DNA of 64,000 nucleotides. It comes from an uncultured Candidatus Peregrinibacteria bacterium (GTDB lineage Bacteria; Patescibacteriota; Gracilibacteria; Peribacterales; Peribacteraceae). Positions 4,508 through 9,510 of the stretch are shown piece after piece (position 1 is the first letter of the stretch; the number at the start of each line of letters is the position of its first letter). The stretch lies in contig CAIKAD010000003.1 of assembly GCA_903825315.1 (NCBI GenBank), positions 11,053 through 75,052 on the forward strand. The letters are read 5' to 3'. The position numbers and the translations under genes were made by a program. The notes under the pieces are model-generated. The model had not been told where the DNA came from, did no database searches, and saw only the letters and a program-made list of their open reading frames with translations.

Positions 4508-5356
4508 ATGAAACGCCTCTACGCTTTTCCTGTAGTCCTGCTTCTGCTGACCGCCTGCGTGCAGGCGAACACAGGATACACATTGACCTTTGACCAGCAG
4601 GGACAGTCTCATAAACAGGAACTCATCGACACAGCCACACGCGTCATTTCGCGGCGCCTGCAACAACTGGAGCTGGAACTGCGCGGAAAGAAAGTGGAAC
4701 AGACGGCGGATGGTGCCGTCATACGGTTTGCTCTCGCCGACACATCAAAGCGTACATTCCTAGACCAGCAACTCTCAGCGTCCATTGATTTCCGCGTGAT
4801 GGTGGAAACCACCCAGGACAAGGCGGACATTTGGAATGATCAGGATGCCATCGGCTTCCGCGCAACGGGCATTACGGAAAAGAACGTCACTTGGGCAACA
4901 GCTACGCCGGCTCCGGTCTCGTCAGTGGGCGCAGCGGCAGGGAATAAGAAGGGGGGCGTCGTGACTATCGCGCTCGATACGGAAGGGCAAAAGCTCCTTG
5001 CCAAGACTATCCAGGAGAATGAAGGAAAGAGGATGGGCATCTTTGTGCGCGGAGCGCTCGTCACGTATAAGCGCATCGCCACTACCGATAAGCCGGAAGC
5101 CATCCCCATCGACGCCGTTCCTTCTTATGAGCTCGCCATCGTCTTTGCCGATGACGTCAATCTTGGCGCGCATGCTACGTTCACACCACTCACTCCTGCA
5201 GGAAACCAGACATCCAGCACAGGCGCCTCTCCATCATCTGCAGAACCATCAGTTTCCTCTACAGGTTCCACGACATCTTCCGTTGCTGCCTCTTCTGCCT
5301 CCGGCGCCATCCTTCCATCCTCTGGAACATCGTCATCCCTTATCACTAATCCCTAA
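4508..5356 (+). CDS. lipoprotein with SecD-periplasmic-domain-like segments and a Ser-rich tail
   Basis: Lipobox in MKRLYAFPVVLLLLTAC. RVISRRLQQLELE...AVIRFALAD and GIFVRGALV resemble SecD P1 motifs by eye. The ATG at 4508 is preferred over the ORF-track start at 4409. Confidence 0.5.
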   Translation: MKRLYAFPVVLLLLTACVQANTGYTLTFDQQGQSHKQELIDTATRVISRRLQQLELELRGKKVEQTADGAVIRFALADTSKRTFLDQQLSASIDFRVMVETTQDKADIWNDQDAIGFRATGITEKNVTWATATPAPVSSVGAAAGNKKGGVVTIALDTEGQKLLAKTIQENEGKRMGIFVRGALVTYKRIATTDKPEAIPIDAVPSYELAIVFADDVNLGAHATFTPLTPAGNQTSSTGASPSSAEPSVSSTGSTTSSVAASSASGAILPSSGTSSSLITNP

Positions 5357-5382: not shown

Positions 5383-7839
5383 ATGTCACGCTCCCGCCCT
5401 TTCTACTGGCCAGTTATCGCGGTTATCCTCGGCACTCTCATGGTGATCATCGCCCTTCCGCAGGAATGGAAAACTTGGGCGCCTGACATCATCAAACAAC
5501 CCGCGCTCCACCTGGGACTAGACCTGGTAGGGGGCACCCAGCTCGACTTCCGCATCTCCGAAGAGGAAATCCAGCAACAGTTGCGGCAGCTCGATAAGGA
5601 TATGGAGGACCTTAAGGCCAAGAATGCCCCCGCAGGCGACATGAATAAGCTGCAGGCGCAAAAGTTCAGCATCCAGACCCAACAGCAAAGTATCGTGGAA
5701 GCCATCCGCACCGTACTGGAACGCCGCATCAATGCGCTCGGCGTGAGCGAGGCAACCATCACACCGTCCTACATCGGCAACGAGAAGCACCTCCTCGTGG
5801 AATGCCCCGGCGTGGTGGATACGCAGGAATGCATCAAGGTGGTGGGCAAGACCATCCAGTTGGAATTCAAGGAGGAATTCACCCAACCGACCGAGTCTTT
5901 TAAGACCGACGTCCGCGCCAAGGCGGACGCCATGCTCCGACGCATCACCCAAAGCGGCTCCTCGCTCCAGAAGGAAGGACAGGACGTGGGTTCGCAACTG
6001 GGGATGGGTTATCAGGACCGGCTTCTGCTCTACAAGGACACCATCCCCAAAGGTCTCGAAAGCCTGTGGGGCAAGCAGCGGGGGAAAGTGTACAAGCTGG
6101 AGGGCAGTATCGATACCACGCAGCAGGACGAGAACGGCCAGCCGAAGCAGCAGACCATACCGGGCATCTTCCTTGCGGAAGTGACGCAGCCTCTCACCAT
6201 GACCGGACGGACGGTAACGGAAGCAGCCCGCGCCTTTGAGGTCCTGGGACAAACCGAAACGGGCGCCACCAACACCCCGCAGCAGAACGTCCCCATGAGC
6301 AGCATCAACCCCCTTATTGCCTCCGCGCTCACGTCCATGAAGGCAGGCGATCTTAAAGCCGTCTCGACGGGCACCGGCGCGGCGCACGTCCTCTTTTTGA
6401 GCGGCATCACAAAGGGAAAGGAGGAGATGGATCTGAGTCATATCCTCATCGCCTACAAGGGCGCCACAGAGGCGTCCGCTTCGGTCACGCGCACCAAGGA
6501 ACAGGCCCTTGCTCTCGCCAAGGAGATCAAAGCAAAGATCGATGGAGGAGCATCCTTCGCCGACCTCGCCAAGACACAGTCCGACGGCGCCACGTCCAAA
6601 GAAAAGGGCGGAAATCTGGGAGCAGTACAACGGGGAGAGTGGCCGCCGGCTTTTGACTCCGCCGCCTTCTCCCTTGCTTCCGGCAAGGTGAGCGATCCGG
6701 TGGAGACGCAGTACGGCTATCACATCATCCGCAGCAACGGCCCCAAGAAGACCAATCCCGACCTCGCCACATACAATGACCTTTCCCTCACGGGCCCCAA
6801 CGCCGAAGCCCGCGCCAACCTCCTCATCGGCCAGCTCAAGGGCGGCCAAGTACGCACACGGGAACAGGCTATGGAGGTTCGCACGGTGTTCTTCTCCCTT
6901 CTGCCTTCGGGCTGGAAGGACACCCCGCTCGACGGCAAGCACTTCCGCTCTGCCGCGGTCACCATGGATCCCACCACCAACATCCCCGTGGTGCAGATTC
7001 TCTTCGATGACGAGGGAGGCAAGCTGTTCCAGGAACTCACCAAGCGGAATATTCAGAAGCGCATCGCCATTTTCGTGGGCGGCCAGCTCGTCTCCGCACC
7101 TACCGTACAAACGGAAATTTCCGGCGGCTCCGCCGTGATTACGGGGAGCAACAGCTTTGACGAGGCGCGCCAGCTGGCACAGGACCTCAATACGGGCGCC
7201 ATTCCGGCCCCCATCTACCTCGTGGGGCAATACACGGTAGAAGCCACCCTCGGAGCAGCCGCACTCCTTACGTCGCTCCAAGCTGCCTTCATCGGCACGC
7301 TCATCCTCATGGTCTACATGCTCTTCATGTACCGCCTGCTGGGCCTCATGGCAGACATCGCGCTGGCCATGTACGCCATTATGCTCGCTGCCATCCTCAA
7401 GCTCCCGCTCCTCCTCTTCTCGTCCAACTACATCGTCCTCACGCTCGCCGGCATGGCGGGAATCATCCTGAGCATCGGTATGGCCGTGGACGCCAACGTG
7501 CTGGTATTTGAGCGCGTAAAAGAAGAACTGCGCAAAGGCAAGCTTGTGCGGACTGCTGTGGAAGCCAGCTTCAAGCATGCCTGGCCGGCTATCCGCGATA
7601 GCAACGTCTCCACGCTCATCACCTGCGGCATCCTCTTTATCATCGGAACGTCGATTATACGCGGGTTCGCCATCACGCTCAGTATGGGCGTGCTCCTCTC
7701 CATGCTCACGGCTGTTATCGTAACCCGCTGGCTCCTGCGCCATCTCGCCCGCACCCCGCTCGCCAATCGTCCCGAGCTCTTCTGCGGACAGAAGCTGAGT
7801 ACCGCAGAAGATGTCGGCATGGTGGAAACGTCTGTTTGA
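5383..7839 (+). CDS. secD: protein translocase subunit SecD with an inserted PpiC/parvulin-type PPIase domain
   Basis: N-terminal TM helix, then LDLVGGTQLDF and ERRINALGVSEATI. C-terminal six-TM SecD core (GMAVDANVLVFERVKEE). Residues ~349-453 (nt 6427-6741) form a complete parvulin motif set: SHILI...FADLAK..SDG.S...GGNLG...YGYHII. Confidence 0.9.
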   Translation: MSRSRPFYWPVIAVILGTLMVIIALPQEWKTWAPDIIKQPALHLGLDLVGGTQLDFRISEEEIQQQLRQLDKDMEDLKAKNAPAGDMNKLQAQKFSIQTQQQSIVEAIRTVLERRINALGVSEATITPSYIGNEKHLLVECPGVVDTQECIKVVGKTIQLEFKEEFTQPTESFKTDVRAKADAMLRRITQSGSSLQKEGQDVGSQLGMGYQDRLLLYKDTIPKGLESLWGKQRGKVYKLEGSIDTTQQDENGQPKQQTIPGIFLAEVTQPLTMTGRTVTEAARAFEVLGQTETGATNTPQQNVPMSSINPLIASALTSMKAGDLKAVSTGTGAAHVLFLSGITKGKEEMDLSHILIAYKGATEASASVTRTKEQALALAKEIKAKIDGGASFADLAKTQSDGATSKEKGGNLGAVQRGEWPPAFDSAAFSLASGKVSDPVETQYGYHIIRSNGPKKTNPDLATYNDLSLTGPNAEARANLLIGQLKGGQVRTREQAMEVRTVFFSLLPSGWKDTPLDGKHFRSAAVTMDPTTNIPVVQILFDDEGGKLFQELTKRNIQKRIAIFVGGQLVSAPTVQTEISGGSAVITGSNSFDEARQLAQDLNTGAIPAPIYLVGQYTVEATLGAAALLTSLQAAFIGTLILMVYMLFMYRLLGLMADIALAMYAIMLAAILKLPLLLFSSNYIVLTLAGMAGIILSIGMAVDANVLVFERVKEELRKGKLVRTAVEASFKHAWPAIRDSNVSTLITCGILFIIGTSIIRGFAITLSMGVLLSMLTAVIVTRWLLRHLARTPLANRPELFCGQKLSTAEDVGMVETSV

Positions 7840-8892: not shown

Positions 8893-9510
8893 ATGAAACG
8901 ACGCTTGGTGCTCCTGCATTTCCTGCTCACGTTGGCATTCCCTCTCGCATCGTTCGCAGACGGGATGACTGTCTCCCTCGTCCCTGCCCCGTCCCGCACG
9001 GAACATATCTTGGGACGCCGGAATGCGCCGGTGACGGTAATCGTCTACAGTGATTTTGAGTGTCCGGCGTGCAAATTCCACCATGCTACTTTACGTAGAG
9101 TAATCCGGAAATACCGTACTAAAGTGAACGTGGTGTACCGAAACTTTCCCCTCCCTATGCATTCCTTTGCCCGGGATGCTGCTGTGGCGGGAGAATGCAT
9201 TGCCAAAGAAAAGGGGAACGCCGCTTACTGGCAATACATCTATCTGATCTACGAAAACGGTACGGCGAAATATGCTCAAATGGCAGATGCTATGGCTTTG
9301 TCTCCACAGGATCTGGAAGCATGCAGGAATGCGGGAGAGGCGGATACCATTGTGGATAGACAACTCGCAGAGGGAAAGGCTGCCGATATATGGGGAACTC
9401 CAACGAACTTCATCTACAGCCGGAAAACAGGCTCCATGGTCAAACTGGGAGTAGCGGCCCCAGATATGGAAAAACTCACCAGCCTCATTGATAAGCTGCT
9501 TGTGGAATAA
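8893..9510 (+). CDS. secreted DsbA-family thiol:disulfide oxidoreductase
   Basis: Signal peptide MKRRLVLLHFLLTLAFPLASFA. Thioredoxin active site FECPACKF. Confidence 0.7.
   Translation: MKRRLVLLHFLLTLAFPLASFADGMTVSLVPAPSRTEHILGRRNAPVTVIVYSDFECPACKFHHATLRRVIRKYRTKVNVVYRNFPLPMHSFARDAAVAGECIAKEKGNAAYWQYIYLIYENGTAKYAQMADAMALSPQDLEACRNAGEADTIVDRQLAEGKAADIWGTPTNFIYSRKTGSMVKLGVAAPDMEKLTSLIDKLLVE

What the first reader, a model, noticed from the sequence alone, without database searches (positions are those of the whole stretch)
6427..6741. SecD carries a complete parvulin (PpiC-type) PPIase domain in its periplasmic region
Between the conserved SecD P1 motifs (ERRINALGV... upstream, IAIFVGGQLVSAPTVQTEISGG... 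downstream) there is a ~330-aa insertion.

The last ~105 aa of the insertion match the rotamase signature throughout: SHILIAYKG...GASFADLAKTQSDGATSKEKGGNLGAVQRGEWPPAFDSAAF.L..G.VS.PV.T.YGYHII.

Foldases such as PrsA, PpiD and SurA normally act as separate proteins at the translocon exit. A covalent SecD-parvulin fusion would couple the SecD pulling domain to prolyl isomerase or chaperone activity. No secF follows; folB is next.
Basis: partly seen in the sequence, partly recalled or inferred. Interest (0 to 1): 0.6.

Follow-up and report, generated by a model that had tools for sequence, protein, structure and literature searches.

The report
SecD export motor with built-in foldase
The only SecD protein-export subunit of this small Peribacteraceae (Candidate Phyla Radiation) bacterium carries a parvulin prolyl-isomerase module inside its outward-facing domain; the fusion is real, is shared by many related lineages, and I found no paper that describes it.

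Summary
The ORF at 5383-7839 (+) encodes an 818-aa SecD. It scores above NCBI's SecD cut-off and is the only SecD in a 99.6%-complete 1.29-Mb genome.

About 330 extra residues sit between the P1-base strand (LEFKEE) and the P1 head. Residues 346-453 (nt 6418-6741) are a full parvulin domain: Pfam Rotamase_3 E 4.6e-28, and the model superposes on Pin1 at 1.6 A. Residues 170-272 are a second, degenerate parvulin, seen only by profile-profile chaining. Residues 276-345 and 454-512 are unassigned. No PrsA/SurA-type helical chaperone domain was found.

The fusion is not a chimera. The identical protein lies on at least 10 contigs from several runs.

The same layout occurs in every sampled genome of its GTDB family (code f1; close protein hits are labelled Peribacteraceae), in several other families of its class, and as a two-parvulin form in other Patescibacteria groups. 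That is roughly 12% of 401 sampled genomes.

SecF is encoded elsewhere, next to the trigger factor gene. In the 12 f1 genomes of the phylum sample the embedded parvulin is the only one detected.

The function is inferred, not shown: a foldase or holdase tethered at the translocon exit.

Literature searches found no description. Earlier runs of this scan noted the same fusion in five other genomes.

The parts
5383..7839 (+). secD ORF, 818 aa plus stop. It is the only SecD in the genome.
   Evidence: TIGR01129 secD scores 331.6 bits against a cut-off of 244.4. PF02355 hits only this ORF and SecF in the whole genome.
5404..5553 (+). N-terminal transmembrane helix (about residues 8-25) and the SecD/SecF GG-motif region (residues 42-57).
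   Evidence: The AF2 model has helix 9-24. The weak Sec_GG hit covers residues 42-57. GLDLVGGTQLDF is invariant in alignment A1.
5554..5697 (+). Helical hairpin, residues 58-105. It is longer than in unfused Patescibacteria SecDs and poorly conserved.
   Evidence: AF2 helices 61-79 and 84-118. Mean pairwise identity is 0.41. Comparison with L089 and L090.
5698..5874 (+). P1 base, N-terminal part (SecD_1st), residues 106-164, ending in the strand IQLEFKEE.
   Evidence: PF21760 E 3.7e-13. Mean pairwise identity is 0.88.
5890..6198 (+). Degenerate parvulin-like domain, residues about 170-272, with an added beta-hairpin. It lacks the His/Asp catalytic signature.
   Evidence: A chain of HHalign comparisons. 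Ours against domain 1 of related SecDF-type proteins: probability 94%, E 1.3e-7. That domain against domain 1 of the two-parvulin form: 97.6%. That domain against the intact parvulin: 98.6-98.8%. A direct comparison with the intact parvulin is not significant.
6208..6417 (+). Unassigned alpha/beta segment, residues 276-345. It is confidently modelled, possibly a parvulin remnant, and absent from the related SecDF-type proteins.
   Evidence: pLDDT 85-92. There is only a weak in-register HHalign hit to the C-terminal half of the parvulin (P 0.03-0.08). Foldseek against PDB gives no match for residues 165-345 (best E 0.37). The segment is missing from L036 by inspection of its printed sequence.
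6418..6741 (+). Intact parvulin (PpiC-type) PPIase domain, residues 346-453.
   Evidence: PF13616 E 4.6e-28 and PF00639 E 3.4e-23. The best PDB sequence hits are PrsA of Bacillus (6vj4, E 1e-19). Foldseek gives rmsd 1.6 A over 111 columns to the Pin1 PPIase domain. In 40 homologues, S352, H353, D401, G410, F424 and G445 are invariant, T442 is T or S in all 40, and H447 is present in 39 of 40.
6742..6918 (+). Linker from the parvulin to the P1 head, residues 454-512 (strand-helix-strand).
   Evidence: AF2 elements E461-470, H474-486 and E491-505. There is a weak similarity of residues 467-489 to parvulin helix 1 (P 8e-4, probability 24%).
6919..7209 (+). P1 head subdomain, residues 513-609.
   Evidence: PF22599 E 4.9e-27, profile positions 18-114. 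Mean pairwise identity is 0.78.
7231..7752 (+). C-terminal transmembrane bundle (TM2-6) with the invariant motif GMAVDANVLVFER, residues 617-790.
   Evidence: PF02355 E 7.5e-10. AF2 helices 625-790. D703, E710 and R711 are invariant.
4508..5356 (+). Upstream lipoprotein gene (MKRLYAFPVVLLLLTAC...) with a segment resembling the SecD P1 head. It is conserved directly upstream of secD in relatives. Its link to SecD function is untested.
   Evidence: BLASTP: 37% identity over 71 aa to SecD residues 536-606, E 3e-7. PF22599 E 3e-4, below the cut-off. In 7 related loci the tblastn match starts in an upstream frame whose P1-head-like sequence matches the query.

Best explanation
This gene encodes the cell's single SecD, the proton-driven partner of SecF that pulls exported proteins out of the SecYEG channel. 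A roughly 330-residue module has been inserted at the junction between the base and the mobile head of its extracytoplasmic P1 domain.

The module contains, in order:
- a degenerate parvulin-like domain;
- an unassigned alpha/beta segment;
- an intact parvulin (PpiC/PrsA-type) prolyl-isomerase domain;
- a short linker.

Shown here:
- the architecture and the confident fold of the module;
- near-invariance of the parvulin signature residues;
- conservation of the fusion across many Candidate Phyla Radiation lineages;
- a separately encoded SecF;
- no other parvulin and no PrsA/SurA/PpiD-type chaperone domain in this genome.

Inferred:
- The module acts as a foldase or holdase held permanently at the translocon exit. 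It would bind unfolded chains as SecD's head captures them, and probably catalyse prolyl cis/trans isomerisation.
- It would thereby do covalently what free PpiD, SurA and PrsA-like lipoproteins do by docking on SecD/SecDF in E. coli and Mycoplasma.
- In Peribacteraceae it appears to have replaced a free parvulin foldase.
For: Architecture: Pfam and NCBIfam hits. The AF2 model has pLDDT 80-94 across residues 165-512. Foldseek matches SecDF (5yhf, 3aqp; E about 1e-13) and the Pin1 PPIase domain (rmsd 1.6 A).

Insertion site: comparison with unfused SecDs. In all 10 related fused proteins scanned, the P1_head match starts at profile position 17-20.

Purifying selection on the signature: H353 and D401 are invariant, T442 is T or S in all 40, and H447 is present in 39 of 40. 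The domain as a whole is only 54% identical on average.

Not an artefact: the identical protein lies on at least 10 contigs from several runs.

Distribution: 22 of 22 other genomes of its GTDB family, and parts of at least 11 other families of the class. About 35 further genomes in about 19 families carry the two-parvulin form in a 401-genome phylum sample. Pfam confirms records labelled Uhr-, Magasanik-, Falkow- and Buchananbacteria.

Genome inventory: one parvulin only. No SurA_N-type domain. SecF sits next to tig. All 12 f1 genomes of the phylum sample (own genome included) have exactly one parvulin match, inside SecD.

Precedent for the partnership:
- SurA binds the holo-translocon, with SecDF periplasmic domains proposed as the recruiters (PMC9987972).
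- PrsA-like parvulin lipoproteins form a folding chamber over SecDF-SecYEG in M. pneumoniae (bioRxiv 10.1101/2025.04.25.650208; 10.1101/2024.09.05.611430).
Against: There is no functional data: no expression, activity or interaction evidence for any member.

The canonical catalytic Cys/Asp position (the Asp of Bacillus PrsA in the alignments) is Gly402 in 34 of 40 homologues. The invariant Asp401 sits one residue earlier. Full PPIase activity is therefore not assured.

The genome also encodes a cyclophilin lipoprotein, so the embedded parvulin is not the only extracytoplasmic PPIase.

Lineages with the two-parvulin form usually keep a free ~350-aa parvulin protein as well. The fusion therefore does not always replace free foldases.

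The geometry of the module relative to the SecY exit is unknown. The whole-protein model has pTM of only 0.42.
Confidence: 0.7

Rival explanations
1. The embedded parvulin is catalytically dead or very weak. The whole module then serves only as a substrate-binding (holdase) surface or a structural extension of the P1 head, like the inactive parvulin domains of PpiD and SurA P1.
For: Gly402 occupies the canonical Cys/Asp position in 34 of 40 homologues. The neighbouring domain (residues 170-272) is clearly a degenerate parvulin, which shows that this lineage tolerates loss of catalysis. From established knowledge, chaperone function of SurA and PpiD does not need PPIase activity.
Against: H353 and D401 are invariant, T442 is T or S in all 40, and H447 is present in 39 of 40, while the rest of the domain varies. 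According to bioRxiv 10.1101/2024.09.05.611430, an Asp one residue away from the Pin1 C113 position occurs in active parvulins. Four homologues have Asp at both positions. By inspection of the L065 sequence printed, the two-parvulin form has Glu at the canonical position.
Confidence: 0.22
2. The fusion is an assembly or gene-calling artefact: a chimera of a secD gene with a prsA-like gene.
For: The genome is a metagenome-type assembly of 5 contigs.
Against: The identical 818-aa protein, with the same neighbours, lies on at least 10 contigs from several independent runs. There are more than 120 protein clusters with the same domain order at 57-74% identity. The fusion is present in all sampled genomes of the family, including single-contig genomes. 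There is no composition break across 5.4-7.8 kb. The insertion is in frame on both sides within one ORF.
Confidence: 0.01
3. The module has a job unrelated to general secretion, for example cell-surface attachment or host contact in an episymbiotic lifestyle, or regulation (gating) of the SecDF proton cycle.
For: Many CPR bacteria are thought to be episymbionts. The non-parvulin parts (residues 276-345 and 454-512) have no recognisable relatives and evolve fast (identity 0.43-0.50).
Against: The only recognisable domains are foldase domains. The insertion site is the hinge next to the substrate-capturing head. The nearest sequence relatives of the parvulin domain are PrsA foldases. Free parvulin foldases are documented partners of SecD (PMC9643414; 10.1101/2025.04.25.650208).
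Confidence: 0.07

Closest known systems
Canonical SecD/SecDF (Thermus thermophilus SecDF, PDB 3AQP/5XAN/5YHF; E. coli SecD in the holo-translocon model 5MG3)
   Same: It has an N-terminal TM helix, a P1 base and head, five C-terminal TM helices and the GMAVDANVLVFER motif. It scores above the TIGR01129 cut-off. A SecF partner is present in the genome. These structures are the top Foldseek hits.
   Different: About 330 extra residues (a degenerate parvulin, an unassigned segment, an intact parvulin and a linker) lie between the last N-terminal base strand and the head. Unfused Patescibacteria SecDs have about 20-30 residues there.
PrsA (Bacillus lipoprotein foldase; PDB 6VJ4, 1ZK6, 4WO7)
   Same: It is the closest sequence relative of the intact parvulin domain (E 1e-19 to 1e-14). 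It is extracytoplasmic, membrane-tethered and acts on proteins leaving SecYEG.
   Different: PrsA has a helical N/C chaperone domain around the parvulin, a lipid anchor, and forms dimers. Here no such helical domain was found, and the anchor is SecD itself.
SurA and PpiD of E. coli
   Same: They combine inactive and active parvulin domains (SurA P1/P2; PpiD inactive). They physically associate with SecD/SecDF and the translocon (PMC9643414, PMC9987972).
   Different: They are separate proteins with SurA_N-type chaperone domains that dock non-covalently. Here the parvulins are part of the SecD chain.
Mycoplasma pneumoniae 'dome' complex (Mpn444/Mpn436/Mpn489 PrsA-like lipoproteins over SecDF-SecYEG)
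   Same: It occurs in a genome-reduced bacterium in which parvulin-domain foldases are integral to the Sec translocon and meet the emerging substrate (bioRxiv 10.1101/2025.04.25.650208; 10.1101/2024.09.05.611430).
   Different: It is a multi-protein chamber of large lipoproteins, not a domain insertion into SecD, and the sequences are unrelated outside the parvulin fold.

Membership tests
SecD (TIGR01129 / Pfam SecD_1st + SecDF_P1_head + SecD_SecF_C) | Scores above the curated cut-off of the SecD equivalog model. | tested here: met
   TIGR01129 scores 331.6 bits against a cut-off of 244.4, in 2 stretches split by the insertion.
SecD (TIGR01129 / Pfam SecD_1st + SecDF_P1_head + SecD_SecF_C) | Topology: TM1, a large extracytoplasmic P1 domain with base and head, then five TM helices. 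| tested here: met
   Pfam domains. AF2 secondary structure. Foldseek hits to 5yhf and 3aqp, E about 1e-13.
SecD (TIGR01129 / Pfam SecD_1st + SecDF_P1_head + SecD_SecF_C) | A SecF partner is encoded in the same genome. | tested here: met
   L001:1018-2085 scores 229.7 bits on TIGR00966 against a cut-off of 160. It is not adjacent to secD.
SecD (TIGR01129 / Pfam SecD_1st + SecDF_P1_head + SecD_SecF_C) | Conserved membrane-embedded Asp of the proton path (TM4 of T. thermophilus SecDF). | not tested
   D703 in GMAVDANVLVFER is invariant in 40 homologues. Its equivalence to the T. thermophilus residue rests on my recall of the motif, not on an alignment made here.
Parvulin / PpiC-type PPIase (PF00639, PF13616) | Scores above the Pfam gathering thresholds. 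| tested here: met
   PF13616 scores 98.5 bits against 22.5. PF00639 scores 82.9 bits against 21.7.
Parvulin / PpiC-type PPIase (PF00639, PF13616) | Parvulin fold. | tested here: met
   Foldseek: rmsd 1.6 A over 111 columns, TM-score (normalised to the target) 0.85-0.88, against Pin1 PPIase domains.
Parvulin / PpiC-type PPIase (PF00639, PF13616) | Catalytic His - Cys/Asp - Ser/Thr - His set. | tested here: inconclusive
   H353 (40 of 40), T442 (37 T, 3 S) and H447 (39 of 40) are present. The canonical Cys/Asp position is G402 in 34 of 40, with the invariant D401 one residue earlier.
Parvulin / PpiC-type PPIase (PF00639, PF13616) | Prolyl cis/trans isomerase activity. | not testable with these tools
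   This needs an enzyme assay.
PrsA/SurA/PpiD-type foldases (helical chaperone domain plus parvulin) | A SurA_N / trigger-factor-like helical chaperone domain flanking the parvulin. | tested here: not met
   SecD has no such Pfam hit. PF13624 and PF13623 have no hit in the genome. The model of residues 165-345 has no PDB match (best E 0.37) and is mixed alpha/beta rather than all-helical.
PrsA/SurA/PpiD-type foldases (helical chaperone domain plus parvulin) | An independent protein with its own signal peptide, lipid anchor or TM anchor. | tested here: not met
   The module is internal to the SecD ORF.
PrsA/SurA/PpiD-type foldases (helical chaperone domain plus parvulin) | Tandem inactive and active parvulin domains (as in SurA). 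| tested here: met
   The HHalign chain identifies residues 170-272 as a degenerate parvulin upstream of the intact one.

The most novel reading that the evidence does not exclude
The proton-driven swing of SecD's P1 head is mechanically coupled to the embedded foldase module. One polypeptide would then both pull the emerging chain and pass it straight to its own parvulin/holdase. This would be a minimal 'pull-and-fold' machine that replaced free PrsA/PpiD/SurA in Peribacteraceae. It would also be a covalent counterpart, evolved independently, of the Mycoplasma translocon 'dome'.
Probability: 0.3. Interest if true: 0.75.

Novelty: new variant of a known kind. Interest (0 to 1): 0.58.

Why it matters
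How proteins leaving SecYEG are handed from the SecDF motor to extracytoplasmic chaperones is still open. Current evidence is cross-links, low-resolution maps and models for PpiD, SurA and the Mycoplasma dome.

A natural, conserved, covalent SecD-parvulin fusion argues like a 'Rosetta stone': it suggests the SecD P1 head and parvulin foldases work on the same substrate at the same place. It also offers a single-chain system for structural and biochemical study of that hand-over.

It further shows how genome-reduced CPR bacteria economise on envelope proteostasis. Finally, public annotation ('protein translocase subunit SecD') hides the extra domains.

Tried and rejected
- **Read-coverage test of the chimera idea.** I used independent assemblies of the identical protein instead.
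- **PrsA/SurA-type chaperone domain in residues 165-345.** Rejected. There is no Pfam hit, no Foldseek match for a confident stand-alone model, and no SurA_N families in the genome.
- **Direct profile comparison of residues 165-345 with the intact parvulin, or with domain 1 of the two-parvulin form.** Not significant (probability <2%). The link appears only through the intermediate SecDF-type group. Residues 276-345 remain unassigned.
- **'The embedded parvulin is the only extracytoplasmic PPIase.'** Rejected. A cyclophilin lipoprotein exists.
- **'Fusion always replaces free parvulins.'** Rejected for the two-parvulin lineages, which mostly keep a free ~350-aa parvulin protein.
- **Single origin of all fused forms.** A core-SecD tree (insertion excluded) groups the Peribacteraceae-type and SecDF-type forms (96/83). 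The two-parvulin forms are left unresolved among unfused SecDs. One gain followed by losses is neither shown nor excluded.
- **Occurrence outside Patescibacteria.** Not established. A few records labelled Gammaproteobacteria, Bdellovibrionales or Bathyarchaeia carry it, but these are metagenome bins whose labels I did not verify.
- **Literature.** Seven full-text searches found no description of the fusion.
Full report
**What is there**

The window holds one long ORF on the + strand, 5383-7839, encoding 818 aa. Pfam finds, in order:
- SecD_1st at residues 106-164;
- Rotamase_3 at 341-451 (E 4.6e-28), with Rotamase at 353-450 (E 3.4e-23);
- SecDF_P1_head at 513-609, matching profile positions 18-114;
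- SecD_SecF_C at 617-788.

NCBIfam's SecD equivalog model is passed at 331.6 bits against a cut-off of 244.4. The match comes in two stretches, and weaker PrsA-model hits fall at residues 343-459.

Two unfused Patescibacteria SecDs of 445 and 434 aa have only about 20-30 residues between the base strand 'L(D/E)FR(R/E)E' and the first head strand. Here about 348 residues lie between LEFKEE and TPLDGKHF. The '~330-aa insertion' is therefore correct. It sits at the connection between the P1 base and the mobile P1 head.

**It is real**

- Base composition shows no break across the gene.
- The identical 818-aa protein occurs on at least 10 contigs from several independent runs or assemblies (ERR4194174, ERR4194106, ERZ1426820, ERZ1426664). 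Each has the same neighbours: an NTP-transferase gene, a 315-aa ORF, secD, folB, folK and a thioredoxin-like gene.
- More than 120 protein clusters at 57-74% identity have the same Pfam set. Sources name them only 'protein translocase subunit SecD' of Peribacteraceae, Peribacteria or Peregrinibacteria.

**Anatomy of the insertion**

An AlphaFold2 model built on 40 homologues has pLDDT 80-94 over residues 165-512. The inter-domain arrangement is uncertain (pTM 0.42). Foldseek against PDB returns SecDF structures (5yhf, 3aqp; E about 1e-13). It also returns parvulin domains: Pin1 PPIase at rmsd 1.6 A over 111 columns, and PrsA.

By sequence, the closest solved relatives of the parvulin domain are Bacillus PrsA proteins (6vj4 E 1e-19; 1zk6 E 1.2e-14).

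Across 40 homologues the signature residues are nearly fixed, although the domain averages only 54% pairwise identity:
- S352, H353, D401, G410, F424 and G445 are invariant;
- T442 is T or S in all 40;
- H447 is present in 39 of 40.

One caveat applies. In the alignments, the position aligned with the catalytic Asp of PrsA is Gly402, in 34 of 40 homologues. The invariant Asp401 lies one residue earlier. A preprint on Mycoplasma parvulin lipoproteins notes that an Asp shifted by one residue occurs in active parvulins (10.1101/2024.09.05.611430). Catalytic competence is therefore likely but not assured.

The 180 residues before the parvulin were modelled alone with loci-derived homologues (A2, pLDDT 87). 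They gave no PDB match (best E 0.37). They are therefore not a PrsA/SurA-type helical chaperone domain. No SurA_N-type family is found anywhere in the genome either.

Profile-profile comparison resolves part of this region. Relatives in other Patescibacteria groups carry two adjacent parvulin domains, and the first is degenerate (98.6-98.8% HHalign probability to intact parvulins). A third group of SecDF-fused proteins of about 1,020-1,150 aa has an intermediate first domain. Our residues 170-272 match that intermediate at 94% probability (E 1.3e-7). The intermediate in turn matches both the degenerate domain (97.6%) and our intact parvulin (93.9%). Residues 170-272 are thus a strongly degenerate parvulin with an added beta-hairpin.

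Residues 276-345 are absent from the SecDF-type proteins, judged by eye against the L036 sequence. Together with residues 454-512 they remain unassigned. They give only weak, in-register hints of parvulin ancestry.

**Genome context**

The genome (1.29 Mb, 5 contigs, 99.6% complete) has only two SecD/SecF-family hits: this gene and a SecF on another contig. The SecF scores 229.7 bits on TIGR00966 and is followed by the trigger factor gene.

The PPIase inventory is small:
- The embedded parvulin is the only parvulin domain in the genome.
- The only FKBP hit is trigger factor.
- There is one cyclophilin, and it is a lipoprotein (lipobox LVSC).

The cell therefore has a second extracytoplasmic PPIase, but no free PrsA, PpiD or SurA.

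**Distribution**

In a 201-genome sample of the class, a contiguous parvulin-plus-head match is present in all 22 other genomes of the family. It is also present in parts of at least 11 further families.

In a 401-genome sample of the phylum, the Peribacteraceae form is confined to that family. A query from a record labelled Uhrbacteria finds the two-parvulin form contiguous with the head in about 35 more genomes of about 19 families. Together that is roughly 12% of the sample.

Pfam on 10 loci confirmed the same domain order in every case, with the same P1_head entry point at profile position 17-20. The loci included records labelled Uhr-, Magasanik-, Falkow- and Buchananbacteria.

Parvulin counts differ between the forms:
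- All 12 f1 genomes of the phylum sample (own genome included) have exactly one parvulin match, inside SecD.
- Two-parvulin lineages usually also keep a free ~350-aa parvulin protein.
- 216 of 401 genomes have no parvulin at all.

A tree of the SecD core, with the insertion left out, groups the Peribacteraceae-type and SecDF-type forms (96/83). The two-parvulin forms stay unresolved among unfused SecDs. A single gain with later losses is possible but not shown.

**How it most likely works**

From established knowledge, SecDF uses the proton motive force to swing the P1 head, which captures and pulls the emerging chain.

Free parvulin foldases are documented partners of this machine:
- SurA binds the holo-translocon, with SecDF periplasmic domains proposed as recruiters (PMC9987972).
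- In M. pneumoniae, PrsA-like parvulin lipoproteins form a chamber over SecDF-SecYEG, with substrate density on the active parvulin (10.1101/2025.04.25.650208; 10.1101/2024.09.05.611430).

The fusion places a parvulin pair at the base-head hinge of SecD. The most economical reading is a permanently tethered foldase or holdase that receives chains from the head.

This is inference. Nothing here shows activity, substrate contact or geometry. The main rival is a non-catalytic binding role.

**Novelty**

Both parts are well known. The combination exists in public databases under the plain name SecD. Seven full-text searches found no paper that describes it.

Earlier notes of this scan recorded the same fusion in five other genomes. 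One follow-up reached the same conclusion. I re-derived the points independently.

I class this as a new variant of a known kind, of moderate-to-good interest to the Sec and chaperone field.

Noticed in passing
window 4508-5356 (+): A lipoprotein gene lies 26 nt upstream of secD (MKRLYAFPVVLLLLTAC..., with a Ser-rich tail). One segment resembles the SecD P1 head (37% identity over 71 aa, E 3e-7; weak PF22599 and TIGR01129 hits). In 7 related Peribacteraceae loci the tblastn match starts in an upstream frame with P1-head-like sequence. It looks like a free P1-like paralogue. Its function is unknown.
   Followed up: partly
L001:1018-3464 (G000:C2, about 260.4-262.9 kb): secF is unlinked from secD. 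It sits directly upstream of the trigger factor gene tig, so an export-motor subunit is paired with the ribosome-associated chaperone.
   Followed up: partly
L085:1477-2244 (-) (G000:C5): The genome's single cyclophilin is a lipoprotein (lipobox LVSC followed by a Ser/Pro-rich linker). It is therefore a second extracytoplasmic PPIase besides the SecD-embedded parvulin.
   Followed up: partly
window 8893-9510 (+): A signal-peptide protein with a CPAC motif and Thioredoxin_4 / weak DSBA hits lies three genes downstream of secD, after folB and folK. It is another envelope folding factor in the neighbourhood.
   Followed up: no
window 5554-5697 (+): SecD has a second, smaller extra element. It is a poorly conserved helical hairpin (residues 58-105) between the GG motif and the P1 base, longer than in unfused Patescibacteria SecDs.
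   Followed up: no
proteins P0127, P0129, P0130, P0132 and others: Many 340-415-aa proteins in the representative library match the parvulin part of the query in three separate stretches. They may be free proteins with three tandem parvulin domains. Their origin and role were not examined.
   Followed up: no
L032-L063 (e.g. L036:3001-5208 and downstream): Related records labelled Peregrinibacteria or Gracilibacteria encode SecD-SecF fusions of about 1,020-1,150 aa. They also carry a degenerate and an intact parvulin in P1, and some extra sequence between the head and TM2.
   Followed up: partly
L108 (G075) and L109 (G133): Two SecDs of the same class (623 and 631 aa) have about 350 residues before the P1 head, but my HMMs detect no parvulin in them. 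L109 groups with the fused clade. This may be an insertion degenerated beyond recognition, or a different insert.
   Followed up: no
L045, L050, L058, L059, L068, L071 and others: Some metagenome bins labelled Gammaproteobacteria, Bdellovibrionales or Bathyarchaeia carry fused SecDs of the Patescibacteria type. The labels are probably binning or taxonomy-mapping errors, but this was not checked.
   Followed up: no
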